Shown here: positions 11,289-52,637 of the stretch, piece by piece | How the letters are laid out: the number at the start of each line of letters is the position of its first letter | How positions within the stretch are numbered: the stretch's first letter is position 1 | Origin: an uncultured Thermoplasmatales archaeon | GTDB lineage: Archaea > Thermoplasmatota > E2 > DHVEG-1 | NCBI GenBank assembly: GCA_964648565.1 | Contig: CAZYLG010000002.1 | Coordinates: forward strand, 1,245-65,244 | DNA: 64,000 nucleotides | Direction of reading: 5' to 3' | Notes under the pieces: model-generated | Told to the model about the DNA's origin: nothing | What the model saw: only the letters and a program-made list of their open reading frames with translations | Database searches by the model: none | Translations under genes and position numbers: made by a program

Positions 11289-11291
11289 AAT

Positions 11292-13744: not shown

Positions 13745-14107
13745 TCAACCCTTTAAAATCCGATCAACAGTATTCAATAATGTATCCTTATCAAACGGTT
13801 TTAAAATATAATCAGACAATCCTTCACTCAACAATGTTTCCTTCCGCTTATCAGAAATCTCAAGCACACTCATAAACGCTACTTTCAAATCATCATGAGT
13901 CTTTTTAATCCGATTAAACACATCCCAACCACTCATCCCCGGCATCATAATATCAAGTAACACTAAATCAACATCAACATCATCAAGTTTATCAAGACAT
14001 TCCTCACCACTATACGCAGGAACTACTTCATACCCACCAATTTCAAGAACCGTACGAGTCAAATCAACAATATCTGGTTCGTTATCAACAACCATTATTT
14101 TTTTCAT
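13745..14107 (-). CDS. Single-domain CheY-like response regulator (receiver only)
   Basis: MKKIMVVDNEPDIV...LVLLDIMMPGMSGWDV...KPF carries the receiver-domain acidic pocket, the phospho-acceptor D in LLDIMMP, and the conserved K in ILKPF. ATG 14107 is preferred over the longer track ORF. Confidence 0.85.
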   Translation of the reverse strand: MKKIMVVDNEPDIVDLTRTVLEIGGYEVVPAYSGEECLDKLDDVDVDLVLLDIMMPGMSGWDVFNRIKKTHDDLKVAFMSVLEISDKRKETLLSEGLSDYILKPFDKDTLLNTVDRILKG

Positions 14108-14270
14108 CGTGTTCAAACACCATTCCATCAACAATACAAAGTATTCAACCTTGTATAGAATCAATGCATATAAACACTTTATCCTTTTTAACCTAACGAT
14201 TAAAAATCATAAAATAACTAGAATCTTTAAATTACATAAACTGTATTCACCAAAAAAAGGAGATAATCCT

Positions 14271-15269
14271 GTGGCTGCCCAACCTAATAAAGTAACCATC
14301 ACCACAAAACTTTTCGCTCACCTTGAAACCATGAGGCCATACACGGTGATCTGGTGCGGACTAGTTAGTCTTGCTGGTGCTTGCTTAAGCTGGGGAAAAT
14401 TACCGCCACTTGATGTTGCCCTTCTTTCATTAATCGTCCCAATAATGGGATGGATATCTGGATTATACCTTTCAGACTTTCTTGATCGAAAGTTAGATAA
14501 AATCGAAAAACCACATCGACCAATACCATCCGGGAGAATTAAACCATACGAAGCAATCATTGTTGGATCAATCTATGCAATAGTAGGTACCTTTTTTTCA
14601 TGGTACCTTGGAATTAAAAATTTCAGCCTTGTTTTCGTCGTAGCACTCCTCGTACTAACCTATACATCAATAGCAAAATCAAGAGGATTCCTTGGTCATA
14701 TAAACAGAGGTGTTGTCACCGTCGCAGCATATTTTTATGGAGTTTTTACCGCACCTGTTGCATTAGATACAATTCCGATATACATCTGGCTTCTTGCACC
14801 TGTTTTTTTATTCCATGATGCAAACAGCAACCTTGTGGGGGCTATTAGAGACAGAGAAGGAGATAAAAAAGGAGGATATCAAACCATCCCAGTTAAATAT
14901 GGAATTAAAAAATCAATTGGATTATCTGCACTTCTTACCATAATCTGGTTCTCAATCGCATTTATTCTTCCTCTTCAATATGATTTTGTTTCACACTATT
15001 ACTATTATCTTATCTTTATAGATGTTATTATTCTAATATCATTTTATGCATTCTTCTTTTGGTCTCTTAAATCATACTCACGAAAAAAGGCATTAAGATA
15101 CCATGAATTCTTTGTCATTGAACGAATCACCTTAGCATCAGCATTTATCATTGGATCAACTACACTTTATCTTGGTATCGGTATTTATCTAACTGCATTG
15201 ATTTTAACAAGTTTATTCCAGATTAGTTTACGGTCTCGTTATGAATTTAAGGATGGAAAACTTACATGA
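14271..15269 (+). CDS. UbiA-family aromatic/isoprenoid prenyltransferase
   Basis: About 8 TM helices. First Asp-rich motif SDFLDRKLDKIEKPHRPIPSGRI, second motif AIRDREGDKKGG. GTG 14271 sits after AAGGAG (14258-14263). The track start 14109 would overlap the divergent response regulator. Confidence 0.8.
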   Translation: MAAQPNKVTITTKLFAHLETMRPYTVIWCGLVSLAGACLSWGKLPPLDVALLSLIVPIMGWISGLYLSDFLDRKLDKIEKPHRPIPSGRIKPYEAIIVGSIYAIVGTFFSWYLGIKNFSLVFVVALLVLTYTSIAKSRGFLGHINRGVVTVAAYFYGVFTAPVALDTIPIYIWLLAPVFLFHDANSNLVGAIRDREGDKKGGYQTIPVKYGIKKSIGLSALLTIIWFSIAFILPLQYDFVSHYYYYLIFIDVIILISFYAFFFWSLKSYSRKKALRYHEFFVIERITLASAFIIGSTTLYLGIGIYLTALILTSLFQISLRSRYEFKDGKLT

Positions 15270-16213
15270 AATGTTTAGTAACAGGATCTTCAGGATTCAT
15301 TGGCAATGCGTTAGTTCACCGGCTTTGTAATCAAGATCATGAAGTCATTGGATTAACTCATAAACAGGATCCACCTAAAAAACATCCCAAAGCAACGTAT
15401 ATTACTGATGATATCGTACGTCCCGCAGATAAATTAAAAGAAGCATGCAAAACTGTTGATGTAGTGTTTCATTGTGCTGCTTTTGTAAAAGATTACGGAT
15501 CAAAGAAACTGTTTTATGAAATCAATGTCGATGGAACAAAAAACCTTGTCAACCTTTGTAAAGATTCAATTAATAGGTTTGTTTTTCTTAGTCACATCCC
15601 TTATGAAAAAGTCACTGCTTCAAATTATTATAATAAGACTAAAACTATAGCTGAAACATATTTGCATGAACAGTATAAAAAAAATGGTTTTCCTGAAGTA
15701 GTCATTCGGCCCGGTAATGTGTATGGGCCAGGAGCAACAACCTGGGTAGTTCGCCCGGTTCAATCAATAAAAAAAGAACGTATTGCACTTATCGATCATG
15801 GCTCAGGAATATTTCTACACACCTACATTGATAATTTACTGGATGCTCTCATCGTTGCAGCAGAAAAAGATAATGTTGTTGGTAAATCCATTGAAGTCAC
15901 TGATGGAGATCATTCAGTTACTTGGGGTGCGTATCTTAATGATTTAGCTAAAATAGTTGGTAAAGATCCAATTAAGAAAAATTTATCCAAATCAACAGCG
16001 TTACTTGTTGGAAAAATCATGATGCTTCTTCACAAAACATTTGGCATAAAACCATGGGTGACACCTCAAGCAGTTGAAACATTTACGAATACCAAAAAAG
16101 TATCAATCGATGAAGCAAGAAAACTTTTAGATTATTCACCACGGATTTCCTATGCGGAAGGTATGAACCAGGTCAAACAATGGTTGAAAAAAATGAATCT
16201 AGATCAATCTTAA
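15266..16213 (+). CDS. NAD(P)-dependent epimerase/dehydratase (extended SDR)
   Basis: MKCLVTGSSGFIGNALV is a GxxGxxG motif and YNKTK is the catalytic YxxxK. ATGA overlap with the UbiA stop at 15266-15269. Confidence 0.85.
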   Translation: MKCLVTGSSGFIGNALVHRLCNQDHEVIGLTHKQDPPKKHPKATYITDDIVRPADKLKEACKTVDVVFHCAAFVKDYGSKKLFYEINVDGTKNLVNLCKDSINRFVFLSHIPYEKVTASNYYNKTKTIAETYLHEQYKKNGFPEVVIRPGNVYGPGATTWVVRPVQSIKKERIALIDHGSGIFLHTYIDNLLDALIVAAEKDNVVGKSIEVTDGDHSVTWGAYLNDLAKIVGKDPIKKNLSKSTALLVGKIMMLLHKTFGIKPWVTPQAVETFTNTKKVSIDEARKLLDYSPRISYAEGMNQVKQWLKKMNLDQS

Positions 16214-16226
16214 TTTGTGAATTACT

Positions 16227-16877
16227 ATGATGAAAAAAATATTAAACATTCTTCAACAACTGATTTTTTCAACGATTGGCGATCAGATTAAACCTGGATC
16301 TTTCAAAAGAACCATGGATATTGCGTTTGTTTTGTTTGAAAAAATAGCATTTGCTTTTGAGGACGCATCCAAATTTTATATCAATGTATATCAAGAGATC
16401 GTTGATAAGGAACTACGATTACTCAATGATTATCAATTACAAAATATGTTAGTTGTTGGATCTGGTTCTATCCCTGCAACACCGATACTTCTTGCTAAAA
16501 AAAGCAATGCACAGATTGTCTGCATCGATATTGATAAACATGCAATACAAAAATCTCAACATGTATTAAAGAGAATGAAGTTGGATGATAAGATTAGTGT
16601 GAAATCTGGTGATGGCATTCATTTTTCATATGATGATTATGATGCAATTTTTATTTTATATGGAATGAAAAGTCAAAAAGAAATCATAGATTCACTTTCC
16701 GAATCTCTTCCTAAAAAAATTCCGGTCATTTTACGTGTAGTTCCTCAAGATGATAACGCATTAATTGACAATACTCCGTTTGATTTATCAACACTTTTTA
16801 CAATTAAAGGTAAGGTCAGATCACATAGTTGGGGTTTATTAGATTCATATCTATTGGAAAGAAAGTTAGAAAAGTAA
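16227..16877 (+). CDS. Rossmann-fold SAM-dependent transferase, nicotianamine-synthase-like
   Basis: MLVVGSGSIPATPILLAKK...IVCIDIDKHAI...YDAIFILYGM...K...VILRVV parallels the NAS/CntL pattern GSGPLPLTSI...N.D...YDVVFLAALVGM...K (from memory). It is shorter than typical NAS. Confidence 0.5.
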   Translation: MMKKILNILQQLIFSTIGDQIKPGSFKRTMDIAFVLFEKIAFAFEDASKFYINVYQEIVDKELRLLNDYQLQNMLVVGSGSIPATPILLAKKSNAQIVCIDIDKHAIQKSQHVLKRMKLDDKISVKSGDGIHFSYDDYDAIFILYGMKSQKEIIDSLSESLPKKIPVILRVVPQDDNALIDNTPFDLSTLFTIKGKVRSHSWGLLDSYLLERKLEK

Positions 16878-16895
16878 TTTTTTTGATTTATTAGT

Positions 16896-18266
16896 TTATT
16901 TATTCGCTAATTTAGACACAATAACTTTTGAAAAATGAGTTTGTGTTTCGTTCTTAATTTCATCTTGCGGAGTAACCGTTATTGAAACTTCAGGTCCTAT
17001 CTTTGCTTTAAATCTTTTTTTAAGTTCAGCAATAATTTTTTCGGAAGTAATCTCAGGATCCTTTTTTTCTTCGATTACCACTTTTATTTCAATATCATCT
17101 AACTGATGTTGAACTATTTGAAAATGAGTAATTTTGTACGAATTAAAATATTCCATGGTCTTTGCAGGAATACCCGTGACAGCTAACGGAGAAAGTGTTT
17201 TTCCATCTGGTAAATAAATCAGTTCTGATGCCCGTCCCTCAATTTTTTTAATCATATCTGAAGTGATTCCACAACTTGTTTTCTTTTTAATTGGTGTTGC
17301 AATATCATCAATACCTCTATATCGAATAATCGGCGTACCAGATCCATATAATTTAGTAATAACCGTATGACCGGGTGTATTCAATGGGACTGGTTGATCT
17401 TCTTTGTCTAAAAACTCGATTTTGACAAAATCAGAGTGAACATGATAATCACCTTCAATGCATTCAAAGCTCAGTGGTCCACCTTCTGTAGTACCATATG
17501 CATCTAGCACTCTTTTTCCATAAGCGAGTTCAACATATTGTTTTGTATAATCATCAAGCATCGACCCACTCGACAAGATATACTCTGGATTCACTTGTTT
17601 TCCATGACCATTTTCTTTTAAATAGGCCAGTTGACGAAGCATATTAGGATCTGTACCTAAATATTCGGGCTGAAAATCATTAAGCATTCTCATGATCTTT
17701 TCTGGTTTTTCTCCTAAATTTATGTATCGTATATTCTCCATTTTGAACAATCGATTGACAACTGGAATTTTTTCGATAAAAAACGCGTTTTCAGCACTAC
17801 CCGGTTCAGTGTCAATGATTAAAACAACTTTTGATTTCCTCCAATTTCCACCATACGCTTTTAATGCTCTTACAAATCCAAGCAAACTTTTTAGTGCGGA
17901 GAATCGATCGATGACTACAAACACAGGTTTTCCAGTGGATCCTGATGTTGAAACCGTGAAACTATTACTTGGATCAAGATTTTTTGGCGTGATTCCATGT
18001 GGATAATTATTTCGTAAATCATCCTTTGTGATAAATGGAAGTTTGTTGATATCCTCAATTCCTTGTATATCGCGAGGGTGAATACCATGTCTCTTGTATT
18101 TTTCGTGATACATCGGAACGGTATACGCATAATTGACAATACGTCGGAATTGATTATCTTGATACGTTTTCAATTGTTGTTCATTTAAATTCCAAAGTCT
18201 ATTTACATCAGAAAGATACATTTTTGCTAAACGAACCATAAATGAAAGATTTGAAAATGGAGCCAT
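16896..18266 (-). CDS. Adenylate-forming enzyme, PaaK / coenzyme F390 synthetase / CapK-like
   Basis: The AMP-binding P-loop is VSTSGSTGKPVFVV, and the N-terminal region is PaaK-like (FRRIVNYAYTVPMYHEKYKRHGIHPRDIQGIEDINKLPFITKDDL). Confidence 0.8.
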   Translation of the reverse strand: MAPFSNLSFMVRLAKMYLSDVNRLWNLNEQQLKTYQDNQFRRIVNYAYTVPMYHEKYKRHGIHPRDIQGIEDINKLPFITKDDLRNNYPHGITPKNLDPSNSFTVSTSGSTGKPVFVVIDRFSALKSLLGFVRALKAYGGNWRKSKVVLIIDTEPGSAENAFFIEKIPVVNRLFKMENIRYINLGEKPEKIMRMLNDFQPEYLGTDPNMLRQLAYLKENGHGKQVNPEYILSSGSMLDDYTKQYVELAYGKRVLDAYGTTEGGPLSFECIEGDYHVHSDFVKIEFLDKEDQPVPLNTPGHTVITKLYGSGTPIIRYRGIDDIATPIKKKTSCGITSDMIKKIEGRASELIYLPDGKTLSPLAVTGIPAKTMEYFNSYKITHFQIVQHQLDDIEIKVVIEEKKDPEITSEKIIAELKKRFKAKIGPEVSITVTPQDEIKNETQTHFSKVIVSKLANK

Positions 18267-18365
18267 ACGTGTTCACCCAGATGTTTTTGCATATTATGTT
18301 TTTAAGAATATCTTTATAAGATAAGCATATTTAACTTTGTTTGAACAATAGTTCTAGAGTGACTG

Positions 18366-19691
18366 ATGATGAGTACCTTTACATTAGCAAAAAGTTTTCT
18401 GCAATCAAAAATACGGGAACATTATTCCCGAGATCATATTTTAAAATTACAAGAAAAAAAAGTAAGAGAACAATTACTTTATGCCTTTGACAATTCATCA
18501 TTTTATCATGATTTATATACCTCATATGGTATTTCTCGAGATGATCTTCAGACTATTGATTTGGAGAAAATCCCAACTGTTGACAAAGAGATGATCATGG
18601 ATCACTTTGATGACGTTGTTACGGTTAATGATATAACAAAAGAAGAAGTCTTAGATTTTTTAGATGAAAGTACGCATACAAATGATTTATTCAAAAACAA
18701 GTATCATATTCTTCATACCTCAGGTTCATCAGGAAAACTTGGACTTTTTGTATACTCAAAAAAAGAATGGGATACACTTTATCCATATATTACAAGTGTT
18801 TTTGACTTTAATTTTCGAAAACATAAATCTGTGTTTATTGGAGCTGTAGGTGGTCATTTTACTGGGGCAAGTTTTATTTCTTGGTGTACTACTGGAGTGA
18901 CTCGATTCTTTTGCGATCCATTAATTGTTGATGTAAACGATCCATTAGATGACATTATTACACGATTAAATGAGTTTCAACCAGATATCCTTGGCGGATA
19001 TTTCAACGCATTAAAAGTGCTTGCTCAAAAACAAGAAGAAAACGAATTAAAAATCAATCCGAAGATTCTTACGAATTGTGGTGAAGGATTAAATCAAAAA
19101 GATAAAACATACATTGAAAACGTGTTTCAAGCACCCATGTCTAACCTATACAGTTTTGCAGAATGTTACGTCCTTGGATTTGGTAAAAAAGAATATGATG
19201 GAATTTATCTTCGTGATGATATTTGTATGGTTGAAATAAAAGAGGATCATATTCTTATAACGAATTTAGTCAATAAAGTAGAACCACTGATTCGATATCG
19301 AATCGATGATTTCATCACTCCTAAAGAAGATAAGAAAAAACTGTTACCATTTACCTTAATCGATACAGTTGTTGGCCGTGCTGAATTTGTGATTTGGTTT
19401 GAAAATGAACACGGAAAAATGGATTTTATTCATCCTTTGATTTTTACTGATTTTTACGTGAAAGGATTAGATAAACTTCAAATTGCAATAACAAGTAAAA
19501 CCTCTTTTGAATTCAGAGCTGTTATAACTAGTGATGATAAAAAAAGAGTGTTAGATGAAATCAAAAAGAAACTAGATAAAATACTTCATGACAAACAGTT
19601 TTCAAATGTTACCTATGAGATTGAAGAATATGATTCTTTAGATCCTGACGAAAAAACCCGGAAATTTTCATTAATTGTTGATGAAACCTAA
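18366..19691 (+). CDS. Second, divergent PaaK/F390-synthetase-like adenylating enzyme
   Basis: HILHTSGSSGKLGLFVY P-loop, and the same N-terminal architecture (SSFYHDLYTSYGISRDDLQTIDLEKIPTVDKEMI). Divergently oriented, 99 nt from 16896-18266. Confidence 0.75.
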   Translation: MMSTFTLAKSFLQSKIREHYSRDHILKLQEKKVREQLLYAFDNSSFYHDLYTSYGISRDDLQTIDLEKIPTVDKEMIMDHFDDVVTVNDITKEEVLDFLDESTHTNDLFKNKYHILHTSGSSGKLGLFVYSKKEWDTLYPYITSVFDFNFRKHKSVFIGAVGGHFTGASFISWCTTGVTRFFCDPLIVDVNDPLDDIITRLNEFQPDILGGYFNALKVLAQKQEENELKINPKILTNCGEGLNQKDKTYIENVFQAPMSNLYSFAECYVLGFGKKEYDGIYLRDDICMVEIKEDHILITNLVNKVEPLIRYRIDDFITPKEDKKKLLPFTLIDTVVGRAEFVIWFENEHGKMDFIHPLIFTDFYVKGLDKLQIAITSKTSFEFRAVITSDDKKRVLDEIKKKLDKILHDKQFSNVTYEIEEYDSLDPDEKTRKFSLIVDET

Positions 19692-19692
19692 C

Positions 19693-20295
19693 TTAAGCAA
19701 TTGCTTTTATCACATATTTCCAATCATGATCCTTTGGAAAAAATGCTTCTACTGAATTAAAACCAGATTTTTTTACCTCATCTCTTAATTTATTAGGATG
19801 GCGATGAAATGTTTCACCAACAAGCACATGTTCAATACCAATAAACAATTTTTGAAGCCATGATTGAGCAGGTATCGCTTCAACGATACATAACGTTCCA
19901 TCTTTATCAAGAACTCGCTTACATTCAGAAAATACTTGTTCGTGATATACTACAGGTATATGATGAAGAACGCTAACCAACACAATAATAGAAACTGAAT
20001 TACTATTGCAAGGAATCTTTGTAGCTGAACCTCTTACACGATGAACTCGGAATTGGTTTCCCTTTGATAACAGATTTTTTGATGGATCCATTAATAAAAC
20101 CTGTTTAGCTTGCTTACACAGATAACCAGAAATGTATCCAGTTCCTCCACCAAGATCAAGGACTGTATCATCCTTTTTTATGTTCAGATATTTTTGAAGA
20201 ATATCAATTGATCCTTGATGATCATTCAGAATCCGTTGTTCAACCCAATCATATAAAAATGCTATCTTATCAAAGGAACCAGGCATAATACCCAA
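19693..20295 (-). CDS. Class I SAM-dependent methyltransferase
   Basis: Motif I is TVLDLGGGTGYISGYL, with a Methyltransf_11-like layout. Its stop is 1 nt from the convergent stop of 18366-19691. Confidence 0.8.
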   Translation of the reverse strand: MGIMPGSFDKIAFLYDWVEQRILNDHQGSIDILQKYLNIKKDDTVLDLGGGTGYISGYLCKQAKQVLLMDPSKNLLSKGNQFRVHRVRGSATKIPCNSNSVSIIVLVSVLHHIPVVYHEQVFSECKRVLDKDGTLCIVEAIPAQSWLQKLFIGIEHVLVGETFHRHPNKLRDEVKKSGFNSVEAFFPKDHDWKYVIKAIA

Positions 20296-20301
20296 ACATC
20301 C

Positions 20302-21618
20302 TTAGAAATTAAAATCTCGTTTGTAATATTTTCTAAACGCAAAATTAGACAATGCTGGTTTGAAGCGCCCGATTCCTTTTACGGTGGTAATAGTTCGGGT
20401 TCCTCGTTTAATGATTTTATCTATTGAGTAAAACTCTTTAGCCACTTTTCTTGCACCATCCATAAGTTCTTCAGGAGTCATATTTTTTGGTTCGAAAACA
20501 ACTTCAACTTGATTATAATGAGTCCAATCCTTTGTAAAAATACGGCCAGCTTCATCTAATTTTTCAAATAATTTCGTTCCAGGATACGGCGTTAAAATAT
20601 TGATTTCTAACACATCCATGTTCCACTGGTTAATGGTTTCCAATGTGGTATCAAATACATCTGGAGTGTCATGGTCAAATCCAAAGATAATACCTCCTTG
20701 CACGGCCATATTATAATCATGTAATCTATTTATCAGTTTACTAAAATTTTCGACTTTATTATGCGTTTTATGTGTTTCATTCAAAGCTGCTTGATTCACT
20801 GATTCAAATCCTACAAACCATTCCACACATCCTGCTTTTCGTGCTAAATCCAAAAATGTATCATCAGCTGTTGCAAGTACATCTGTTGTTCCATTGGCCA
20901 CCCATTGTTTATGAACCTTCTGTCTGATTAGTTCTTTAAACAGTTCTTTAGCATATTTTTTGTTAAGGGTAAGATGAGGGTCATGAATAACAAAGATTTT
21001 ATTCGGCATTGTTTTTATTTCTTCAACCACATCCTTAATAGGGCGTTGTTTCACCATATGCCCACAAAAACTACTAATTGCACAAAATTCACAGGTATGA
21101 GGACAACCCTTCGTAGTTTGAATTGCTCCTAAAAAAGGATTATGTATGATAAGATCTCTTCTGAGTGGAGGCACTTTTGAGATATCAAAATCATGATTTC
21201 GTTCATAAATTCTTTTTAATTTTCCTTTTTCAAAATCTTCAAGCACTTTCGTCCAAGTTACTTCAGCAAGACCTTGCACGACACAATCAGCATGTTCAAG
21301 AGCTTCCTCTGGAAGCGCAGTTACATGATATCCACCCATCACCACAGTTTTTCCACGACGACGGAATTCATCAGCAATCTTATATGCCCGAGGAGCCGTC
21401 ATGGTGTATGTCGTAATTCCAACGATATCTGCATCCTCATCATAATCAAGCACATCATAATTCTCATTAACAATCTTAACTTCATGTTTTTCAGGAGTAA
21501 TTGCTGCAAGATGAGGAAGTGTGATAATAGGGTATCCGAAAACGATTTTCCATGCTCCTGGATCACTATAGGTGCTTGATCCATGTCTGATTTTTGGAAA
21601 AACAAATAATATTTTCAT
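20302..21618 (-). CDS. B12-binding-domain radical SAM enzyme (class B), paralogue 1
   Basis: The N-terminal cobalamin-binding-type Rossmann domain reads ADIVGITTYTMTAPRAYKIADEFRRRGKTVVMGGYHVTALPEE. The radical SAM cluster motif is TKGCPHTCEFCA (CxxxCxxC). The C-terminus is DUF4070-like. ATG 21618 (MKILFVFP...) aligns with the paralogue's start. Confidence 0.85.
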   Translation of the reverse strand: MKILFVFPKIRHGSSTYSDPGAWKIVFGYPIITLPHLAAITPEKHEVKIVNENYDVLDYDEDADIVGITTYTMTAPRAYKIADEFRRRGKTVVMGGYHVTALPEEALEHADCVVQGLAEVTWTKVLEDFEKGKLKRIYERNHDFDISKVPPLRRDLIIHNPFLGAIQTTKGCPHTCEFCAISSFCGHMVKQRPIKDVVEEIKTMPNKIFVIHDPHLTLNKKYAKELFKELIRQKVHKQWVANGTTDVLATADDTFLDLARKAGCVEWFVGFESVNQAALNETHKTHNKVENFSKLINRLHDYNMAVQGGIIFGFDHDTPDVFDTTLETINQWNMDVLEINILTPYPGTKLFEKLDEAGRIFTKDWTHYNQVEVVFEPKNMTPEELMDGARKVAKEFYSIDKIIKRGTRTITTVKGIGRFKPALSNFAFRKYYKRDFNF

Positions 21619-21646
21619 GATATCATCTAAACAATTTTTTTCACCG

Positions 21647-22939
21647 TTATTTTGATTTTGGAAATTTTTCATTTATATAAAATGATCGAATACTGATATT
21701 GGCAATGAACCGAGTAAGAATTTTAATTGGATTCATTGTTCCATCATGCACACTTCGTTTCAAACAATTCTTGACCGAATAAAATTCTAAGGAAATCCTT
21801 CTAATTCCTTCTAATAATTCTTCCTTTGACATATGTTTTGGAGTGTAATTAACCTTTCCTTCATCATAATCATTCCAATTATAATTAGTGATTCGTCCTT
21901 CTTTTTCCATCCGGTTAAATAATGGTGTACCAGGATAGGGAGTAAGAATACTAAATGATGCCTCATCTAATCCAAATTGATTCATCGCTTCTAAGGTACT
22001 ATCAAATGTGTCAGTTGTGTCACCATCTAAACCAAAAATAAAAAAACCGGTGACATCCATACCATCTTTTTTGATGTTTTGCACTGCTTTTTTATAATCT
22101 TTGACTTTATTTGTGGATTTCCCAGCTTGATTAATGTTTTCTTGCGAGATTGATTCGATTCCTAGATACCATTTTGTCACTCCTGCGTTTTTTGCCAATT
22201 GTAAGAATTCTTCATCTCGAGCGACAACATTAATGTTCCCAAAGCATTCAAATTTCTTGTTCAATTTTTTCATTTCTTTGAATAGTTCTTTGGTATACTT
22301 TGGATTAATAGTAATTGAGGCATCAGCGAAAAAAATGGTTTTTGCATCAATTGCTCTCATTTCCTCAATGACTTCGTTAATAGGACGAGCTCGAAATGTT
22401 TTTCCTTCAACTCGATTCATCGCACACCATTCACAACCAACAGGGCATCCACGTGTTGCTTGAATTGCTTGAGAAAAAGGAGTAAACACGCCTATATCGT
22501 GCCGTGCAGGTATGATTTCTTCAGCTTTTACCACTCTGGGGCTGGTATAGATCGTCTTCATTTCTCCGTTTTCTAAATCCCTTAATACTTGAGGCCAAGT
22601 TAATTCAGCTTCACCAACTACAACGCTATCCGCATGATCTTTTACTTCGTCTGGCATCAAGGATGCATGATATCCTCCGAAGACAACAGGGACTCCAAGA
22701 TCCCTGTATTTCTTTGCAATTTCATAGCCTCGATTCACATTATAGGTTAATGCAGAGATGCCAACGACATCATATTCTGAAGAAAACGGAACATCTTTAT
22801 ATCGTTCATCAACTAGAGTAACATTGTGTTCTTTAGGGGTCAATGCTGCGATTTGTTGTAATGTTGAAGATGGATATTGAAACTTTGAAAAAAAACTCCG
22901 TTTTGGATTGGAATGAGGCATTACTAATAAAATATTCAT
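21647..22939 (-). CDS. B12-binding-domain radical SAM enzyme (class B), paralogue 2
   Basis: YDVVGISALTYNVNRGYEIAKKYRDLGVPVVFGGYHASLMPDE, then TRGCPVGCEWCA (CxxxCxxC). Collinear similarity to 20302-21618 along the whole length. Confidence 0.85.
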   Translation of the reverse strand: MNILLVMPHSNPKRSFFSKFQYPSSTLQQIAALTPKEHNVTLVDERYKDVPFSSEYDVVGISALTYNVNRGYEIAKKYRDLGVPVVFGGYHASLMPDEVKDHADSVVVGEAELTWPQVLRDLENGEMKTIYTSPRVVKAEEIIPARHDIGVFTPFSQAIQATRGCPVGCEWCAMNRVEGKTFRARPINEVIEEMRAIDAKTIFFADASITINPKYTKELFKEMKKLNKKFECFGNINVVARDEEFLQLAKNAGVTKWYLGIESISQENINQAGKSTNKVKDYKKAVQNIKKDGMDVTGFFIFGLDGDTTDTFDSTLEAMNQFGLDEASFSILTPYPGTPLFNRMEKEGRITNYNWNDYDEGKVNYTPKHMSKEELLEGIRRISLEFYSVKNCLKRSVHDGTMNPIKILTRFIANISIRSFYINEKFPKSK

Positions 22940-23222
22940 ACTGTTTGATTCGCTCCTTTTTTTTTAATTTTTCTTTTTTATAACATATACAAAAGATGAA
23001 ATTATCAACTAATTTCTAGATTCATCATTCATATCATCTATAAGATTCAAAGCAATTTTTTTTAAGTTATTCCTTTTTCTCTGCTAATATAGTAGAATTC
23101 TATTTAATATTTTTCGGGTAACTCTCCTGTTTGTACAAAAAGTATAATATCTAATTAACTTACTAATAAGAATAACAATAATAAAAATTGATTTATCTCT
23201 AAAGCAAGTCCTTTTTGTTGAT

Positions 23223-24257
23223 TTAATGAATAGTGTCAAATTCAGATTTGAAAAATGATAATTTTTGGTTTAATGAATGATACTGATTCCACGAGGCTAA
23301 TACCAGTTTAGGATTAATGTGATAAACTAGCGAGTTCCATCTTAAAAGAAGTTTACCGATCACATCCATTTTACCAAATTCCCTTATAATTTCATGAGCA
23401 TATCCTTTTAAATCTTGTTTTACAATATATTTTCCAGCGATATCTCCACTAAGTAATGCACGGTAAATACCTTGACCATTCATTGGAAGAGTGCCAACAC
23501 CAGTATCTCCAACGAAAATGATATTTTTGTGTTTTAATGGATATTGTAACCCTTCTGGAATGAGTCCACCAGTTGAATACTCAATTGTCCCGGTAATATG
23601 ATGATCTTTTTTGAATTGCTCAAGTAATAGTGATAATTTCACATTGTTATTGATAGTAAGCCCAATTCCTAAATTCATCTCACGATTTTCAGGATGTCTG
23701 GGGAATAACCAGTAATAGCCACCATGTTTATCAAAAATAATCTTTAGTGAATGATCTTCATATGCTGAACAATTCTTGATGGTTTGTTGAAATCCGTAAC
23801 CTACGAGTCGATGTGGTATTCCAAGATTTCTTTTTACAATACTTGGACATCCACTTGCATCTACAATAATATCTCCGGATAATGAGGAAACCTCCTTAAT
23901 GGAATCATTCAACCTAAATTCAACATCCTTTTCTTTCGCTTTTTTTCCTAATGATGCGATAAAAGAAGGTCTATCCAAAATCCATGCGGTTTCAGGTTTT
24001 CTTTCAAAAACATAGGTTTTATTTCCAATTACTATTTCACCATGATAAATTGAAGTTGCAATACCTTCTTTTGATGGTTTCCATTTTAATGAGAATGATT
24101 CAATATTATGGGCTTCTCCGCATTTCCGAGCATCTCTATTATATCCAATTTTTTTATGTTTCTCATGAACGATGACATCAACTGATGGATCGTGTTCTTT
24201 AATGGATAATGCTGTTGCAAGTCCGCTAAGCCCGCCTCCAATGATATCTACTTGCAT
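23223..24257 (-). CDS. FAD-dependent oxidoreductase, geranylgeranyl-reductase family
   Basis: MQVDIIGGGLSGLATAL is the FAD dinucleotide fold. KCGEA sits where GGRs carry the catalytic-Cys motif, and FVGDTGVG is the second FAD motif. Confidence 0.75.
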   Translation of the reverse strand: MQVDIIGGGLSGLATALSIKEHDPSVDVIVHEKHKKIGYNRDARKCGEAHNIESFSLKWKPSKEGIATSIYHGEIVIGNKTYVFERKPETAWILDRPSFIASLGKKAKEKDVEFRLNDSIKEVSSLSGDIIVDASGCPSIVKRNLGIPHRLVGYGFQQTIKNCSAYEDHSLKIIFDKHGGYYWLFPRHPENREMNLGIGLTINNNVKLSLLLEQFKKDHHITGTIEYSTGGLIPEGLQYPLKHKNIIFVGDTGVGTLPMNGQGIYRALLSGDIAGKYIVKQDLKGYAHEIIREFGKMDVIGKLLLRWNSLVYHINPKLVLASWNQYHSLNQKLSFFKSEFDTIH

Positions 24258-24499: not shown

Positions 24500-27400
24500 T
24501 TAGTCAGTTACATCATTCTTCAATTTCATTATTATGGGATAAATAATACTGGTACTTAGTGCGATCAGAAAGATGTAAAATCCATAACTAAACCCCCAAG
24601 AAGATTGAAGATGAACGCTAGATATTGAATCAAGAGCAGTATATTGAATAGTTCCAGATCCAACACTACTTCCGATGCCTAGAACAGTTAATTGTGACAT
24701 TATAAATAAAAATCCACTTAGAAATAACAGTTGAAAGCAAATTCCTCCTATATATAATCCCCATCTTGTTTTTATAAACTTTTTACTAATGAATTGAATA
24801 AAAAACAATACACAAAATGAACTGATTAAAAAAATTAATAATACTTCAATTCCAAGAACGGCTTCACTGGGTAACGTATAAAATTCTCCACTAACTGTAT
24901 CTGTTGAAGTAATAAATGAAATCATTTGAGTAGGTAAAAGATGTAACCTTGTTTCCACAGCTACTTCTGCGTTCTCACCAGCAAAATACCACCAAGGAGA
25001 TAATGCAGCAAGAAGAATAAGTCCTGCGTAAAACAGTAATAATCCTTTTAAATACTGTTGTCGAAAGAATCCAATAAAAACAGAAAATCCGATTAAGGAT
25101 ATTGAAATGATATATCCAATGTAGGGAAGATTTGAATCTTTCATGGTCACAATTCGTTGATGATTATCACTAAAGATGGTTATTGGTTTTTTAGCAATAC
25201 AGTTCTCATCATCATAAATTGAAATATGATAATTTCCTGGTGGTAAATCTGTTTTTAGTGGTTGATTAGATAATTCTATTGTTTTTTCCAAATCTTTGCG
25301 AGAAAACGTAACTAGTGCTGTTTCAAGGAATAATCCTTGTTTATTATACAGATCGATTTCTGTTTCATAAGTTAAGGGAAACTGAAGAGAAAGACTTTTG
25401 TCTTCATCAATTACTAGTGGCTTTCGTTGATCAAATCCCTTATAAGATAAAAAAAGCGTGTAGGTTTCTTTTGGAATTTGCTGAAAAATATACTGTTGAT
25501 TTTGATATGTTGAAAACGGTATTCTCCATTCTTTTTTAGATTCATCCGTAAATAATAATTCAGGCTGCAATTGAATGGCTGGCGTCAATCCCCAATCATC
25601 TTCAATAGAAATCGTAACATCATAGAGTGAAATTTGAAACTGATTATGCAGTGAAAATAAATGATTTATTAATGAAAGAGAGATTGTTTTTCTGCTAACC
25701 GGTATGTTTTTGTAAAAAATTGAAAGTTCATAATCATCAGCAGGATAAAATGGTACTGAAAGACTAGCCGTTCCAGTATTATCTGTTAAATCAGTAGCAA
25801 TGATTTCATCATCTACTTCAACATGAACTGATACATCAGAAAGATCCTTTTCATCTTGATCAGTTGTCATTATCGAAAGAGGTATTGAACGCCGACAATG
25901 AATATGTAATGAAGTGTCTTCTTCTACTGATATTACTTCATATCCAATATACTCTCTTGAAGGTGAAAATAATGAATTTTCTTTATAGATTTTTACCACA
26001 TAATCTCCGGGTGGAATATCAATGAATTTAAATCGTTGAAGAATACTACTATTTTTCCAATCAACAAGTTCTCTTACAAAAGAAAGAATTTCTTTTACAC
26101 TTGTTAAATCAATATCTGAAGAAACACTAAAAAATGGAATTCTAGATACAATAGTTGAAGAGAATATCTTATCATTTTGATACAGCTCAGCTGTCAAATA
26201 AGAAAAATTCTTACCCGTATATGCAGATAATGCTGAACCAAAAGGAACACTGTTTACTCCAGTTACACTTCCTTCTACGGTAAATGTTTTTTCATCCTCA
26301 TATTCTGAGTCAAAAGCATCAACATTGGTTTGTTGTGCATGAATTAAGGATTGGTACATTCGTGATTCATTTGCAATATCCTGCCAAGAACCTTTTTGAA
26401 AAGTGACAAATGAAACATCGAATTGAGCTGAGAATCCTTTTTCAAAATAATATTGTTGCCTGCCTCCAGCATCATAATGATTCCGGGCAGCAAACACACT
26501 ACCAGTATCAGCTTCTAAACCTGGTAGATTAATGGTTTCTTCAACAAATCCTTTCACAGCGATACCATCTTGATCTGATTGAGTTAACGAATGATTCTGT
26601 GAGAATAATAATCCATGTGTTTTCAGCCCTGTTGGTTGATGAATACACATCCAAGCTTCAGACCCTAGATCAATATCATCAGTTGTTTCAAGAATCATCT
26701 CCGGCTCTTCTGAATGAGGATTAACAGGAATATCATATGAATGAACTCGGTCATCTTTACCATATAGATATAATTTAGGAAGAATCGTTCCCATATTGAT
26801 TTTTTCAATGGCTTCACTTTTACTATGAAACGATAACAAATACGCATAGATCCCATCAAAATTATAATCCTTTTTCATTTCAAAATCCTTTAAAATCTCA
26901 TGAGAACAATTCACAAATATTCGTTTTGGTTCACTTGGACAATAATAATATGAATACACATTAGATGTTTTAATCACTCCTTCAGGGGAGACACATTCGA
27001 TTTTTAGTTTAACTAACAAGTTACCATCAATTAACACCGTAGTTTTTGGATTTGTGGAATAACCTGTTCCCACATATTCATAGTCCTCATCGATATCTGA
27101 ACTAATCATCATGGAAAAAGAAGCGAATTGATCGATTTTTTGCGTATCAAGTGTTTTAGAATTTGGTTTTAAACGAGCAACTACTTGTGAAACACCATTT
27201 CCAAAAATAGATCCTTTATATGAAATCCCATATGGTATAATACCATCTTGATTAATGCTATAATAATCCAGATCAATAACTTGACCAGAGATTGGTTCAT
27301 AATAATAATGAGATTTTTCAACGGAAAGATGATCCGGATACGGTTTTCTATTAATTGCTTCATCACTGTATTGAACATAGAACTGATATTCGTTAGAAAC

Positions 27401-52583: not shown

Positions 52584-52637
52584 TCAATTATTTCACAAAA
52601 ACTGAAAACATTTTAAAAATTTGCACAAGGGTCAATA

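What the first reader, a model, noticed from the sequence alone, without database searches (positions are those of the whole stretch)
14108..24257. Compact bidirectional ~10 kb enzyme cluster: UbiA + SDR + NAS-like + 2 PaaK/F390-like ligases + MT + 2 class-B radical SAMs + GGR-like flavoprotein, with no pathway I can name
Nine enzyme genes sit almost without spacers. There is an ATGA overlap at 15266, then gaps of 13, 18, 99 (divergent), 1, 6 and 28 nt, and 283 nt before the flavoprotein. They lie on both strands, which argues for a selected unit rather than chance adjacency. Catalytic motifs are visible in every member: UbiA DFLDRKLD/RDREGD, SDR GSSGFIG + YNKTK, ligase TSGSTGKP and TSGSSGK, MT LDLGGGTG, rSAM CPVGCEWC and CPHTCEFC each with a B12-type Rossmann domain, and FAD GGGLSG. 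The combination covers prenyl transfer, prenyl reduction, radical C-methylation or cyclisation, O/N-methylation and ATP-dependent acyl activation. That suggests a decorated prenylated small molecule (quinone/phenazine-like carrier or meroterpenoid) or tailored ether-lipid chemistry; class-B rSAMs are known as lipid ring and methyl tailoring enzymes. I know no characterised archaeal pathway with this gene set. A single-domain response regulator is transcribed divergently from the UbiA operon.
Basis: partly seen in the sequence, partly recalled or inferred. Interest (0 to 1): 0.8.

Follow-up and report, generated by a model that had tools for sequence, protein, structure and literature searches.

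The report
Conserved archaeal isoprenoid-lipid gene cluster, product unknown
The nine enzyme genes are real, and six of them form a gene cluster conserved across uncultured Thermoplasmatota archaea; it most likely builds and tailors an unusual isoprenoid-anchored membrane molecule that nobody has characterised.

Summary
All nine ORFs, their motifs and their spacings are present as described, and the family assignments hold. None reaches the curated cut-off of any characterised enzyme family.

The window comes from a Thermoplasmatota MAG. I found 42 distinct related loci, all in uncultured Thermoplasmatota. Six genes form a conserved core:
- a DGGGPS-like UbiA
- a ketoreductase (SDR, or a ketopantoate-reductase-like protein in the same slot)
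- a nicotianamine-synthase/CntL-like SAM enzyme
- two divergently transcribed PaaK/F390-type adenylate-forming ligases
- one B12-radical-SAM enzyme

The methyltransferase, the second radical SAM and the GGR-like reductase are accessory to this sub-lineage. Other variants carry AttH/CrtC-like isoprenoid hydratases, glycosyltransferases, sulfotransferases, extra UbiA/NAS-like pairs or a 2-oxoacid:ferredoxin oxidoreductase.

The UbiA resembles O-prenyltransferases (DGGGPS, chlorophyll synthase), not quinone ring prenyltransferases. Hydratases or reductases that act on isoprenoid double bonds recur in the variants.

Best reading: a lineage-specific pathway for an isoprenoid-anchored amphiphile with a head group assembled from SAM-derived aminocarboxypropyl units and ATP-dependent ligations. 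The quinone/phenazine reading is disfavoured. I found no published match. The product remains unknown.

The parts
13745..14107 (-). Single-domain response regulator (CheY-like), divergent from UbiA. A conserved neighbour; its functional link to the cluster is unproven.
   Evidence: PF00072, 91 bits. Start ATG at 14107. Orthologues at 79-92% identity sit next to UbiA in L001, L007, L008, L009, L088 and L101.
14108..14271 (.). AT-rich divergent intergenic region; presumed promoters for the response regulator and the UbiA operon.
   Evidence: Read directly from the sequence. GGAG lies 8 nt before GTG 14272. Promoter function is inferred only.
14272..15269 (+). UbiA-superfamily prenyltransferase, DGGGPS-like (core gene).
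   Evidence: PF01040, 113 bits. Best NCBIfam hits are PRK12884/12883/12882 at 98-122 bits, against cut-offs of 269-353. Best PDB hit is MjDGGGPS 6M31 at 70 bits, then chlorophyll synthase. Asp motifs D63/D66/D70 and D183/D187 are kept; N62 is Ser/Thr/Ala and D180 is Ala in all 15 orthologues.
15266..16213 (+). Extended SDR ketoreductase (core slot). ATGA overlap with the UbiA stop.
   Evidence: PF01370, 97 bits; 3Beta_HSD, 86 bits. OleD-like, 125 bits against a cut-off of 580. Best PDB hit is NSDHL 6JKG. In L001, L010, L011, L017 and L116 a ketopantoate-reductase-family protein fills the same slot.
16227..16877 (+). NAS/CntL-like SAM-dependent enzyme; probable 3-amino-3-carboxypropyl transferase (core gene).
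   Evidence: PF03059, 23.6 bits (<27.1); CntL NCBIfam, 40 bits. Family profile against PDB: CntL 74 bits, MtNAS 48 bits, next generic methyltransferase 32 bits. AF2 model pLDDT 86.9, and the Foldseek top four hits are MtNAS. The GSGSIPAT motif is conserved.
16896..18266 (-). Ligase 1: PaaK-family adenylate-forming enzyme (core gene).
   Evidence: PF00501, 30.6 bits. PaaK, FlxY and DVU_1553 models at 100-111 bits, all far below cut-offs. PDB: PaaK 4R1L at 104 bits, and NatL2/AjiA1. Present in 25/27 loci.
18267..18365 (.). 99-nt divergent intergenic region between the two ligase genes.
   Evidence: The divergent Lig1/Lig2 arrangement is kept in nearly all related loci.
18366..19691 (+). Ligase 2: F390-synthetase-related adenylate-forming enzyme, distant paralogue of ligase 1 (core gene; anchor for all searches).
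   Evidence: TIGR02304, 117 bits (<251.9). Profile against PDB: PaaK 4R1L at 61 bits. 28% identical to Lig1. Invariant TSGSSGK P-loop and C-terminal Lys433. About 65 orthologue clusters, all from metagenomes or Thermoplasmatota MAGs.
19693..20295 (-). Class I SAM methyltransferase (accessory, 12/25 loci).
   Evidence: PF08241, 61 bits; UbiE/MenG subfamily, 49 bits (<158).
20302..21618 (-). rSAM_A: B12-binding radical SAM enzyme (core gene).
   Evidence: PF02310, 46.5 bits; PF04055, 60.8 bits; DUF4070, 22.6 bits; CPHTCEFC motif. BchE, HpnJ and HpnR hits at 87-128 bits, far below cut-offs. Best PDB hit is MgmA 9CCB at 46 bits. Present in 21/25 loci.
21647..22939 (-). rSAM_B: second B12-binding radical SAM enzyme, 39% paralogue of rSAM_A (accessory, 6/20 loci).
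   Evidence: PF02310, 44 bits; PF04055, 88 bits; DUF4070, 33.5 bits; CPVGCEWC motif. Paralogy; distribution.
23223..24257 (-). GGR-family flavoprotein; probable isoprenoid double-bond reductase (accessory, 4/16 loci). Separate transcription unit behind a 283-nt AT-rich spacer.
   Evidence: TIGR02032, 107.6 bits (<158.8); DGGGPL reductase, 60 bits (<580). Best PDB hits are Sulfolobus and Thermoplasma GGR, 3ATQ and 3OZ2. GGGxSG, KCGEA and YYW(L/I)FP are conserved in all five orthologues. Spacer sequence.

Best explanation
This is a vertically inherited, lineage-specific biosynthetic cluster of uncultured Thermoplasmatota. It makes and tailors a dedicated isoprenoid-anchored amphiphile: a specialised membrane lipid, not the standard archaeol/GDGT core.

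Proposed logic (only the family assignments and the linkage are shown; every reaction step is inferred):
1. The ketoreductase (SDR here, ketopantoate-reductase-like elsewhere) turns a keto (acid) group into a hydroxyl.
2. The DGGGPS-like UbiA, translationally coupled to the reductase, O-prenylates an oxygen nucleophile with a polyprenyl diphosphate, forming an ether (as DGGGPS does) or an ester (as chlorophyll synthase does).
3. The NAS/CntL-like enzyme uses SAM as an aminocarboxypropyl donor to add an amino-acid-like unit to the polar part.
4. The two PaaK/F390-type enzymes spend ATP to activate carboxylates (or a hydroxyl) and form amide, ester or thioester links that extend the head group.
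5. The class I methyltransferase methylates a heteroatom.
6. The B12-radical-SAM enzymes modify unactivated carbons by methylation, desaturation or ring chemistry, most likely on the isoprenoid chain.
7. In this genome the GGR-like flavoprotein saturates the chain. In sister lineages an AttH/CrtC-like hydratase instead hydrates a chain double bond, and glycosyl- or sulfotransferases decorate the product.
For: Conserved core. UbiA, ketoreductase, NAS-like, Lig1, Lig2 and rSAM_A each occur in 84-93% of loci with enough flank, across 42 distinct loci down to about 50% identity. The cluster keeps the same genomic position in L001 and L101: response-regulator genes on one side and the PGK gene on the other, plus GAPDH in L001.

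O-prenyltransferase affinity of the UbiA. Best hits are DGGGPS, then chlorophyll synthase; ring prenyltransferases are far behind.

Accessory genes act on isoprenoid double bonds.
- The GGR-like protein keeps the FAD, Cys and YxWxFP motifs.
- AttH/CrtC-like proteins occur in at least 12 loci, placed next to UbiA or next to rSAM_A. This mirrors the experimentally shown B12-rSAM desaturase Ted plus AttH-like hydratase Hgs pair of archaeal lipids (bioRxiv 10.1101/2025.10.20.683597).

Polar tailoring varies between variants: GT1 and GT4, sulfotransferases, a GNAT. Some variants carry extra DGGGPS-like UbiA and NAS-like copies.

Non-orthologous replacement of the SDR by a true ketopantoate-reductase-family enzyme in the same slot points to keto(acid) reduction as the conserved step. 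A 2-oxoacid:ferredoxin oxidoreductase is embedded in L088 and L101.

The NAS-like protein groups with CntL and MtNAS rather than with methyltransferases, by profile and by fold.

Acceptor-side residues differ from MjDGGGPS in all orthologues (N62 to S/T/A, D180 to A) (residue roles from PMC9385802).

No G1P dehydrogenase, GGGPS, CarS or CDP-alcohol transferase appears in any Pfam-annotated neighbourhood.
Against: - No member reaches any equivalog cut-off, so every substrate is inferred.
- The order of steps, the acceptor and the prenyl chain length are unknown.
- The NAS-like protein of the window is below Pfam's own threshold and lacks part of the NAS N-terminal domain. It could still be a methyltransferase.
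- B12-rSAM enzymes with DUF4070 also act on sugars, tetrapyrroles and peptides, so the tail assignment rests on neighbourhood analogy only.
- No transporter or flippase is conserved.
- No cultured organism carries the cluster, so no lipid phenotype can be linked to it.
- I could not check whether the same genomes hold canonical DGGGPS and GGR genes elsewhere.
Confidence: 0.4

Rival explanations
1. Tailoring of the organism's ordinary membrane lipids. The UbiA is a specialised DGGGP synthase paralogue acting on GGGP, perhaps with a different chain. The rSAMs, GGR and AttH-like proteins methylate, desaturate, cyclise, saturate or hydrate archaeol/GDGT chains. The NAS-like enzyme and the ligases modify an amine- or carboxyl-bearing phospholipid head group such as ethanolamine or serine.
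For: - DGGGPS is the closest characterised relative of the UbiA, and lipid GGRs are the closest to the flavoprotein.
- B12-rSAM plus AttH pairs are proven GDGT modifiers.
- The cluster is core-genomic and syntenic, as expected for membrane housekeeping.
Against: - UbiA scores are less than half the DGGGPS cut-offs, and two residues implicated in GGGP handling are replaced.
- A tightly coupled ketoreductase has no role in known archaeol chemistry.
- Some variants carry two or three DGGGPS-like UbiAs, all non-canonical.
- The cluster is absent from cultured Thermoplasmatota in the species-representative genome scan.
Confidence: 0.28
2. A lipid-tailed opine/nicotianamine-type metallophore. The NAS/CntL-like enzyme and the adjacent NAD(P)H reductase act like CntL and CntM (or NAS and deoxymugineic-acid synthase). 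The ligases extend the chelator, and the UbiA adds an isoprenoid anchor, as fatty-acid tails do in amphiphilic siderophores.
For: - CntL and MtNAS are the closest relatives of the NAS-like family.
- An NAD(P)H reductase is always the neighbouring gene.
- Some variants have two NAS-like genes.
Against: - The reductases are an SDR or a genuine ketopantoate-reductase-family enzyme. There is no Octopine_DH domain and no opine-dehydrogenase hit.
- No metal or metallophore transporter is conserved in the cluster.
- B12-rSAMs, GGR and AttH-like genes have no place in known metallophore pathways.
Confidence: 0.12
3. A prenylated membrane redox carrier (quinone- or methanophenazine-like). An aryl acid is activated by the PaaK-type ligases, ring-prenylated by UbiA, methylated by the UbiE-like methyltransferase and the rSAMs, and its side chain is saturated by the GGR-like reductase, as MenJ does.
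For: - PaaK-family enzymes typically activate aryl acids.
- The methyltransferase's best subfamily hit is UbiE/MenG at 49 bits.
- GGR relatives include MenJ, but the hit is only 19.6 bits.
Against: - The UbiA groups with O-prenyltransferases and scores only 17-41 bits on MenA, UbiA, MqnP and HPT models.
- No ring-building or hydroxylating enzymes are in any variant.
- The methyltransferase and the GGR-like gene are accessory, not core.
- The NAS-like enzyme, glycosyl- and sulfotransferases and AttH-like hydratases do not fit a quinone pathway.
Confidence: 0.07
4. No common pathway: independent enzyme genes that are neighbours only through genome compaction and shared ancestry.
For: - Spacing alone is uninformative in a dense genome.
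- The closest loci (83-94% identity) would share gene order by descent anyway.
Against: - The six-gene core, including the divergent ligase pair and the UbiA-reductase overlap, persists at 50-65% protein identity.
- It persists through rearrangements, gene insertions and a non-orthologous reductase replacement.
- Flanking genes change while the core stays.
Confidence: 0.03

Closest known systems
Archaeal ether-lipid core enzymes: DGGGP synthase (UbiA family, e.g. MjDGGGPS, PDB 6M31) and digeranylgeranylglycerophospholipid reductase (GGR)
   Same: The UbiA and the flavoprotein have these as their closest characterised relatives. The Asp-rich Mg/diphosphate motifs are present, as are the GGR motifs (FAD site, Cys, YxWxFP).
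   Different: Scores are far below the equivalog cut-offs: 98-122 against 269-353, and 60 against 580. N62 and D180 of DGGGPS are replaced. The flavoprotein is short (344 aa) and accessory. No G1PDH, GGGPS or CarS is nearby, and the UbiA is embedded with NAS-like and ligase genes.
ted-hgs(-grs) neighbourhood of Bathyarchaeota/ANME: B12-rSAM tetraether desaturase plus AttH-like hydroxy-GDGT synthase (Garcia et al. 2025, bioRxiv 10.1101/2025.10.20.683597)
   Same: B12-binding rSAM genes lie directly next to AttH/CrtC-like genes in several cluster variants (L010, L086, L108, L130). This suggests chemistry on isoprenoid chains.
   Different: The window itself has no AttH-like gene. rSAM_A is 438 aa, whereas the Ted homologue search in that paper required >=500 aa. 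Homology to Ted, Gmm or Grs could not be tested because no sequences were available. UbiA, NAS-like and ligase genes are not part of ted-hgs.
Nicotianamine synthase / CntL aminobutyrate transferases (opine metallophore operons cntKLM; MtNAS)
   Same: The NAS-like family is closest to CntL and MtNAS by profile and by predicted fold. It shares the G-x-G-x-x-P-x-T SAM motif, and residues align with MtNAS Y107 and R221 (the residue roles are from memory).
   Different: The protein is shorter (216 aa against about 260-300), with a reduced N-terminal domain. It is below the Pfam and NCBIfam cut-offs (23.6/27.1; 40/350). There is no CntM-type opine dehydrogenase, no racemase and no exporter or importer.
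PaaK-family adenylate-forming enzymes, including non-CoA ligases (NatL2/AjiA1 ester-forming, BagE, FlxY) and coenzyme F390 synthetase
   Same: Both ligases have the P-loop, hinge and C-terminal Lys motifs. Their best hits are PaaK structures and the TIGR02304/F390-related models.
   Different: Both are far below every cut-off. Lig2 has no Pfam AMP-binding hit at all. The substrate, and whether CoA is used, are unknown. Bacterial homologues (<=43% identity) lack the UbiA/NAS context, although the closest ones, in four Firmicutes loci (L020, L021, L023, L119) and one Anaeromyxobacteraceae locus (L073), also sit beside B12-rSAM genes.
Bacterial hopanoid side-chain (hpn) cluster: HpnA (SDR), HpnI (glycosyltransferase), HpnJ/HpnR/HpnP (B12-rSAM)
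   Same: It works alike in outline: an isoprenoid lipid whose polar end and carbon skeleton are elaborated by an SDR, glycosyltransferases and several B12-rSAM enzymes. HpnA, HpnJ and HpnR are among the better NCBIfam hits, at 80-108 bits.
   Different: All hits are far below cut-offs. There is no squalene-hopene cyclase or HpnH. The prenyl group is attached by a UbiA enzyme, and the host is archaeal.
Chlorophyll synthase (ChlG/BchG) with geranylgeranyl reductase (ChlP/BchP)
   Same: It is a UbiA-family O-prenyltransferase that esterifies a carboxylate, paired with a GGR-family reductase that saturates the attached geranylgeranyl chain. ChlG is the second-best solved relative of the UbiA.
   Different: No tetrapyrrole genes are present. 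Scores are lower than for DGGGPS-type models, and the host is a non-phototrophic anaerobic archaeon.

Membership tests
UbiA superfamily | PF01040 domain above the gathering score, with two Asp-rich motifs | tested here: met
   113.4 bits against 34.2. DxxDxxxD and DxxxD motifs are conserved in all 15 orthologues.
DGGGP synthase (equivalog) | Score above the NCBIfam equivalog cut-off (PRK12882/12883/12884) | tested here: not met
   98, 107 and 122 bits against cut-offs of 296, 353 and 269. The extra UbiA2 and UbiA3 copies in relatives also fail, at 105-113 bits.
DGGGP synthase (equivalog) | Conserved N62 and D180 (MjDGGGPS numbering), implicated in GGGP positioning and activity | tested here: not met
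   N62 is Ser/Thr/Ala and D180 is Ala in all orthologues. D63, D66, D70, D183 and D187 are kept. Residue roles come from PMC9385802.
DGGGP synthase (equivalog) | Catalyses GGGP + GGPP -> DGGGP; sole or essential copy in the genome | not testable with these tools
   Needs an enzyme assay and a complete genome. Only contig fragments were available.
Geranylgeranyl reductase family | TIGR02032 subfamily cut-off / DGGGPL reductase equivalog cut-off | tested here: not met
   107.6 against 158.8, and 60.4 against 580.
Geranylgeranyl reductase family | FAD GxGxxG motif, conserved Cys, and the YxWxFP motif (motif roles from my own knowledge of the SaGGR/TaGGR structures) | tested here: met
   GGGLSG, KCGEA and YYWLFP are conserved in five orthologues. 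Best PDB hits are 3ATQ and 3OZ2.
Nicotianamine synthase / CntL family | PF03059 above the gathering score / CntL equivalog cut-off | tested here: not met
   The window protein scores 23.6 against 27.1, and 40.5 against 350. Most orthologues do carry precomputed PF03059 hits.
Nicotianamine synthase / CntL family | Closer to NAS/CntL than to methyltransferases in sequence profile and in fold; GxGxxPxT SAM motif | tested here: met
   Profile: CntL 74 bits, MtNAS 48 bits, best methyltransferase 32 bits. Foldseek ranks 1-4 are MtNAS at E about 3e-11, against about 1e-8 for methyltransferases. Motif shown.
Nicotianamine synthase / CntL family | Transfers the aminocarboxypropyl group of SAM (methylthioadenosine is the by-product) | not testable with these tools
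   Needs an enzyme assay.
Phenylacetate-CoA ligase PaaK / F390 synthetase (equivalogs) | Score above the TIGR02155, NF041878, TIGR03335 or TIGR02304 cut-offs | tested here: not met
   Lig1: 105-111 bits against 646-700. Lig2: 117 against 251.9, and 38 against 458.7.
ANL/PaaK-type adenylate-forming superfamily | P-loop T/SSGxxGK, hinge GRxx and C-terminal catalytic Lys; homology to PaaK structures | tested here: met
   TSGSTGKP and TSGSSGK. Invariant columns include S119, G120, S122, R338 and K433. 4R1L scores 104 bits with Lig1 and 61 bits with the Lig2 profile.
Class B (cobalamin-dependent) radical SAM | N-terminal B12-binding domain plus a radical SAM core with CxxxCxxC | tested here: met
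   PF02310 at 46.5 and 44 bits (cut-off 32.1). PF04055 at 60.8 and 88.1 bits. DUF4070 at 22.6 and 33.5 bits (cut-off 22). CPHTCEFC and CPVGCEWC motifs.
Characterised class B rSAM equivalogs (BchE, HpnJ, HpnR, ladderane rSAM, MgmA, PhpK...) | Score above the equivalog cut-off | tested here: not met
   Best hit is 128 bits against 481 (BchE). All others are further below.
Archaeal lipid B12-rSAMs (Grs, Gmm, GDGT methylases, Ted) | Sequence clustering with the characterised proteins | not tested
The only evidence is the neighbourhood analogy with AttH-like genes.
Opine metallophore operon (cntKLM-type) | CntL-like gene plus a CntM opine dehydrogenase (Octopine_DH) plus a dedicated transporter | tested here: not met
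   A CntL-like gene is present. The reductases are an SDR or of the ketopantoate-reductase family, with no opine-dehydrogenase hit. No conserved transporter.

The most novel reading that the evidence does not exclude
The cluster makes a previously unknown class of archaeal membrane molecule. A DGGGPS-like enzyme would attach a saturated (or, in sister lineages, hydroxylated, glycosylated or sulfated) isoprenoid chain to a glycerol-phosphate-free head group. That head group would be nicotianamine-like or hydroxy-acid-based, assembled from SAM-derived aminocarboxypropyl units and ATP-dependent ligations. In effect this would be an archaeal counterpart of bacterial phosphorus-free amino-acid or betaine lipids, or a membrane-anchored metallophore.
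Probability: 0.22. Interest if true: 0.85.

Novelty: new variant of a known kind. Interest (0 to 1): 0.6.

Why it matters
Archaeal lipid biosynthesis is being worked out enzyme by enzyme (Tes, Grs, Gms, Gmm, Ted, Hgs). So far this has mostly come from single genes tested in heterologous hosts.

Here is a compact six-gene core. Its natural variants add hydratase, reductase, glycosyl- and sulfotransferase genes. It is restricted to widespread but uncultured sediment and hypersaline Thermoplasmatota.

The cluster joins enzyme types not previously seen together: a DGGGPS-like prenyltransferase, a nicotianamine-synthase-like SAM enzyme, two PaaK/F390-type ligases and B12-radical-SAM enzymes.

If the product is a new lipid or lipid-anchored chelator, three things would follow:
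- a biomarker for this lineage
- new chemistry for NAS-like and class B radical SAM enzymes
- a case of head-group assembly that does not use the CDP-archaeol route

The cluster is small enough to synthesise and express, so the question can be tested directly.

Tried and rejected
- Butanetriol/pentanetriol tetraether (BDGT/PDGT) backbone methylation. I considered this because of the two B12-rSAMs and the Thermoplasmatota host. I rejected it as an explanation of the cluster: the species-representative genome scan returned no locus from cultured Thermoplasmatota such as the BDGT producer Methanomassiliicoccus, and it would not explain the UbiA, NAS-like or ligase genes.
- Quinone/phenazine pathway. 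Disfavoured by the UbiA family scores.
- CntM-like opine dehydrogenase role for the reductase. The ketopantoate-reductase-like variant matches only true ketopantoate reductases, and the SDR matches NSDHL and epimerases.
- RiPP idea (a small precursor gene in the 283-nt gap). Only low-complexity ORFs of 46-51 codons are there, and the region is AT-rich promoter-like DNA.
- The 434-436-aa genes next to Lig1 in L086 and L088 looked like divergent Lig2 copies. hhalign gives <1% probability. They are an AttH/CrtC-like protein and a GATase1/BPL_N-like protein.
- Conserved neighbours of bacterial Lig2 homologues. The top 'families' were antisense ORF artefacts inside the anchor gene. There is no UbiA or NAS context. 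One Clostridiales locus is a different BGC, with B12-rSAM, FabA, ALDH and AMP-binding genes.
- Exact look-ups of Lig2 and of the NAS-like protein in the contig index found nothing. The source could only be identified as a 71,336-bp NCBI contig of a Thermoplasmatota MAG.
- Seven literature searches for the gene combination returned nothing relevant.
- There is no composition anomaly suggesting recent transfer. GC is 31-35% in the cluster against 31-41% across the window.

Full report
**Observation**

The quoted motifs can be read in the translations. Pfam and NCBIfam confirm each family:
- UbiA: PF01040, 113 bits.
- Extended SDR: PF01370, 97 bits; 3β-HSD, 86 bits.
- A 216-aa NAS-like protein: PF03059, 23.6 bits (just under the 27.1 cut-off); CntL model, 40 bits.
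- Two PaaK/F390-synthetase-type adenylate-forming enzymes.
- A class I methyltransferase.
- Two proteins with B12-binding + Radical_SAM + DUF4070 domains.
- A short GGR-family flavoprotein: TIGR02032, 107.6 bits (<158.8).

No protein reaches the curated cut-off of any equivalog model, so none can be given a characterised function by homology.

Spacings are as stated, with two start-codon corrections.
- rSAM_A most likely starts at 21618. Annotated orthologues are 438 aa.
- UbiA most likely starts at GTG 14272, behind a GGAG, and not at 14109 inside the response-regulator gene.

**Source and surroundings**

The proteins occur on a 71,336-bp NCBI contig of a 'Candidatus Thermoplasmatota archaeon' MAG. 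The nearest genome locus is L007, from a Great Salt Lake MAG. It shares 90% Lig2 identity and the same gene order through the 1086-aa downstream gene.

The cluster lies between chemotaxis genes (two MCPs and a CheW-like gene) and housekeeping genes (HtpX-like protease, PGK, GAPDH, a MiaB-like enzyme, LysRS, AlaRS). Base composition is unremarkable.

**Is it a unit?**

Tight spacing and the use of both strands say little in a dense genome. Conservation says more.

I used Lig2 as the anchor: it has about 65 orthologue clusters and no Pfam domain, and every source-named orthologue (>=50% identity) is a Thermoplasmatota or unclassified euryarchaeal MAG. I fetched 79 genome loci and 78 metagenome loci and typed their ORFs against the window proteins and against accessory families found on the way. 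The result, over 42 distinct loci with a Lig2 orthologue and counting only loci with enough flank:

| Gene | Loci with the gene |
|---|---|
| Lig1 | 25/27 |
| NAS-like | 20/23 |
| Ketoreductase | 16/18 |
| UbiA | 15/17 |
| rSAM_A | 21/25 |
| MT | 12/25 |
| rSAM_B orthologue | 6/20 |
| GGR-like | 4/16 |

The divergent Lig1/Lig2 pair and the order UbiA-reductase-NAS-like persist at 50-65% identity, while flanking genes change.

Bacterial Lig2 homologues (<=43% identity) never have the UbiA/NAS context. So there is a six-gene core. The window's MT, rSAM_B and GGR-like genes are accessories of its sub-lineage (L007, L008, L009, L022, L089).

**What the variants add**

- The reductase slot holds either the SDR (11 loci) or a genuine ketopantoate-reductase-family enzyme (5 loci; PDB 3HWR, 114 bits). 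This is a non-orthologous replacement. It points to reduction of a keto (acid) group as the conserved step. The SDR's nearest solved and modelled relatives (NSDHL, OleD) also act on keto- or hydroxy-acid lipids.
- A recurrent soluble protein of about 435 aa has no confident Pfam hit. It gives full-length weak matches to the CrtC N-terminal lipocalin domain, and in one type also to Lipocalin_9 (17-22.7 bits). It occurs in at least 12 loci, either divergent from UbiA or directly beside rSAM_A.
- AttH/CrtC-like proteins hydrate isoprenoid double bonds. A B12-rSAM desaturase (Ted) with an overlapping AttH-like hydratase (Hgs) was recently shown to make hydroxy-GDGTs (bioRxiv 10.1101/2025.10.20.683597).
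- Other variants carry GT1 and GT4 glycosyltransferases (L001, L109, L159), sulfotransferases (L010, L088) or up to four different B12-rSAMs. Some have a second NAS-like type with a second or third DGGGPS-like UbiA and a small PQ-loop membrane protein (L003, L018, L086, L087). L088 and L101 hold a four-subunit 2-oxoacid:ferredoxin oxidoreductase with ferredoxin, a 390-aa GNAT and a GATase1-like protein.
- The window has none of these extras.

**Individual components**

*UbiA.* MjDGGGPS (6M31) is the best solved relative at 70 bits, followed by chlorophyll synthase. NCBIfam ranks DGGGPS-type models at 98-122 bits and ChlG/BchG at 57-68 bits. The ring prenyltransferases MqnP, UbiA, HPT and MenA score only 17-41 bits. 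UbiA enzymes are reported to cluster by acceptor type (PMC9385802), so an oxygen nucleophile (ether or ester) is more likely than an aromatic carbon. D63, D66, D70, D183 and D187 are conserved. N62 is Ser/Thr/Ala and D180 is Ala in all 15 orthologues. This fits an active enzyme with a different acceptor.

*GGR-like protein.* It keeps the FAD site, KCGEA and YYW(L/I)FP. Its best matches are the Sulfolobus and Thermoplasma lipid GGRs.

*NAS-like family.* A family profile hits CntL at 74 bits and MtNAS at 48 bits, against 32 bits for the best methyltransferase. An AF2 model (pLDDT 86.9) has MtNAS as its top four Foldseek hits. The G-S/C-G-S-x-P-x-T motif matches the NAS/CntL SAM site. Family-invariant Y and R residues align with MtNAS positions 107 and 221 (their roles are from memory). 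Aminocarboxypropyl transfer is therefore the most likely chemistry, though unproven.

*Ligases.* Lig1 and Lig2 are 28% identical paralogues with intact adenylation motifs. Their solved relatives include PaaK and the ester-forming NatL2/AjiA1.

*Radical SAMs.* rSAM_A and rSAM_B are 39% identical. The nearest solved structure is the MCR glutamine C-methyltransferase MgmA. That match says only that they are class B enzymes.

**Interpretation**

The best-supported reading is a lineage-specific pathway for a dedicated isoprenoid-anchored amphiphile. A keto group is reduced and an oxygen is prenylated by the DGGGPS-like UbiA. A polar part is extended by SAM-derived aminocarboxypropyl transfer and two ATP-dependent ligations. 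Carbon skeletons are edited by B12-rSAM enzymes. The chain's double bonds are then either saturated (GGR-like, as here) or hydrated (AttH-like, elsewhere), with optional methyl, sugar or sulfate decoration.

What is shown: the gene families, their linkage, and the pattern of replacement and accessory genes. What is inferred: every substrate, the order of steps, and whether the rSAMs act on the tail or the head.

Rivals:
- Tailoring of ordinary archaeol/GDGT lipids is the main rival. It cannot be excluded without whole-genome inventories and assays.
- A lipid-tailed opine-type metallophore is possible, but it lacks an opine dehydrogenase and a transporter.
- The quinone/phenazine reading is disfavoured.
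- Chance adjacency is contradicted by the statistics.

**Known or new?**

The library covers open-access papers and bioRxiv only. MIBiG and antiSMASH were not available.

All the enzyme superfamilies are known, as is the general kind of system: an isoprenoid-lipid biosynthesis and tailoring cluster. The combination and the probable NAS-like step are not known. I therefore rate it a new variant of a known kind. There is a moderate chance (about 0.2) that the product is a new lipid class.

Noticed in passing
window 29349-32555 (-): A 1068-aa protein whose first ~155 residues are an archaellin domain (PF01917, 70 bits), about five times the length of the domain. No other Pfam domain was found.
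   Followed up: no
window 24500-27760 (-): A 1086-aa protein with no confident Pfam domain. It has an N-terminal hydrophobic segment and several C-terminal hydrophobic stretches. It is conserved directly downstream of the GGR-like gene in L007 (78%) and L022 (66%).
   Followed up: partly
window 8661-13211 (+): A tandem of a large MCP-like gene (875 aa), a CheW-like gene (228 aa) and a second, soluble PAS-containing MCP-like gene (410 aa). The signalling domains of the two MCP-like genes are nearly identical over long stretches, so they are recent paralogues. Together with the CheY-like regulator at 13745-14107, this suggests a chemotaxis island abutting the cluster.
   Followed up: no
L010 14191-15678; L017 5024-6349; L086 13697-15001; L015 302-1693; L018 3751-5052; L003 15705-16997: A family of ~435-aa soluble proteins that is nearly invisible to Pfam. 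Members give only full-length weak CrtC (PF07143) hits of 17-22.7 bits, plus Lipocalin_9 and DUF7065 in some. The family recurs in this cluster and looks like a divergent branch of AttH/CrtC isoprenoid hydratases.
   Followed up: partly
L088 8674-12625 and L101: A four-subunit 2-oxoacid:ferredoxin oxidoreductase with its own ferredoxin and a 390-aa GNAT is inserted between the NAS-like gene and Lig1 in one branch of the cluster. This hints that 2-oxoacid or acyl-CoA intermediates feed the pathway.
   Followed up: partly
L003 1886-3969; L086 7617-9721; L087 7529-8543; L018: A recurrent side module: a small PQ-loop/semiSWEET-like membrane protein (87-110 aa), a second type of NAS/CntL-like gene and a second DGGGPS-like UbiA with a ~18-residue insertion after motif 2. 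It sits beside the core cluster in several MAGs.
   Followed up: partly
L020/L119 4118-15558 (Clostridiales MAG): The closest bacterial Lig2 homologue (42%) lies in an unrelated-looking biosynthetic cluster. That cluster holds two BtrH_N proteins, DUF2264, a FabA-like dehydratase, an aldehyde dehydrogenase, a B12-rSAM, a canonical AMP-binding enzyme and a TauE-like exporter. Lig2-type ligase plus B12-rSAM adjacency also appears in Desulfotomaculum, Desulfosporosinus and Anaeromyxobacteraceae loci (L021, L023, L073).
   Followed up: partly
window 16877-16896 and 19691-19693: Two convergent gene pairs (NAS-like/Lig1 and Lig2/MT) are separated by only 18 nt and 1 nt. That leaves no room for terminators, so convergent transcripts must overlap or end inside the opposing gene.
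   Followed up: no
window 51567-54503 (+): Two adjacent ORFs of 338 and 621 aa have no Pfam family at E<=1e-5.
   Followed up: no
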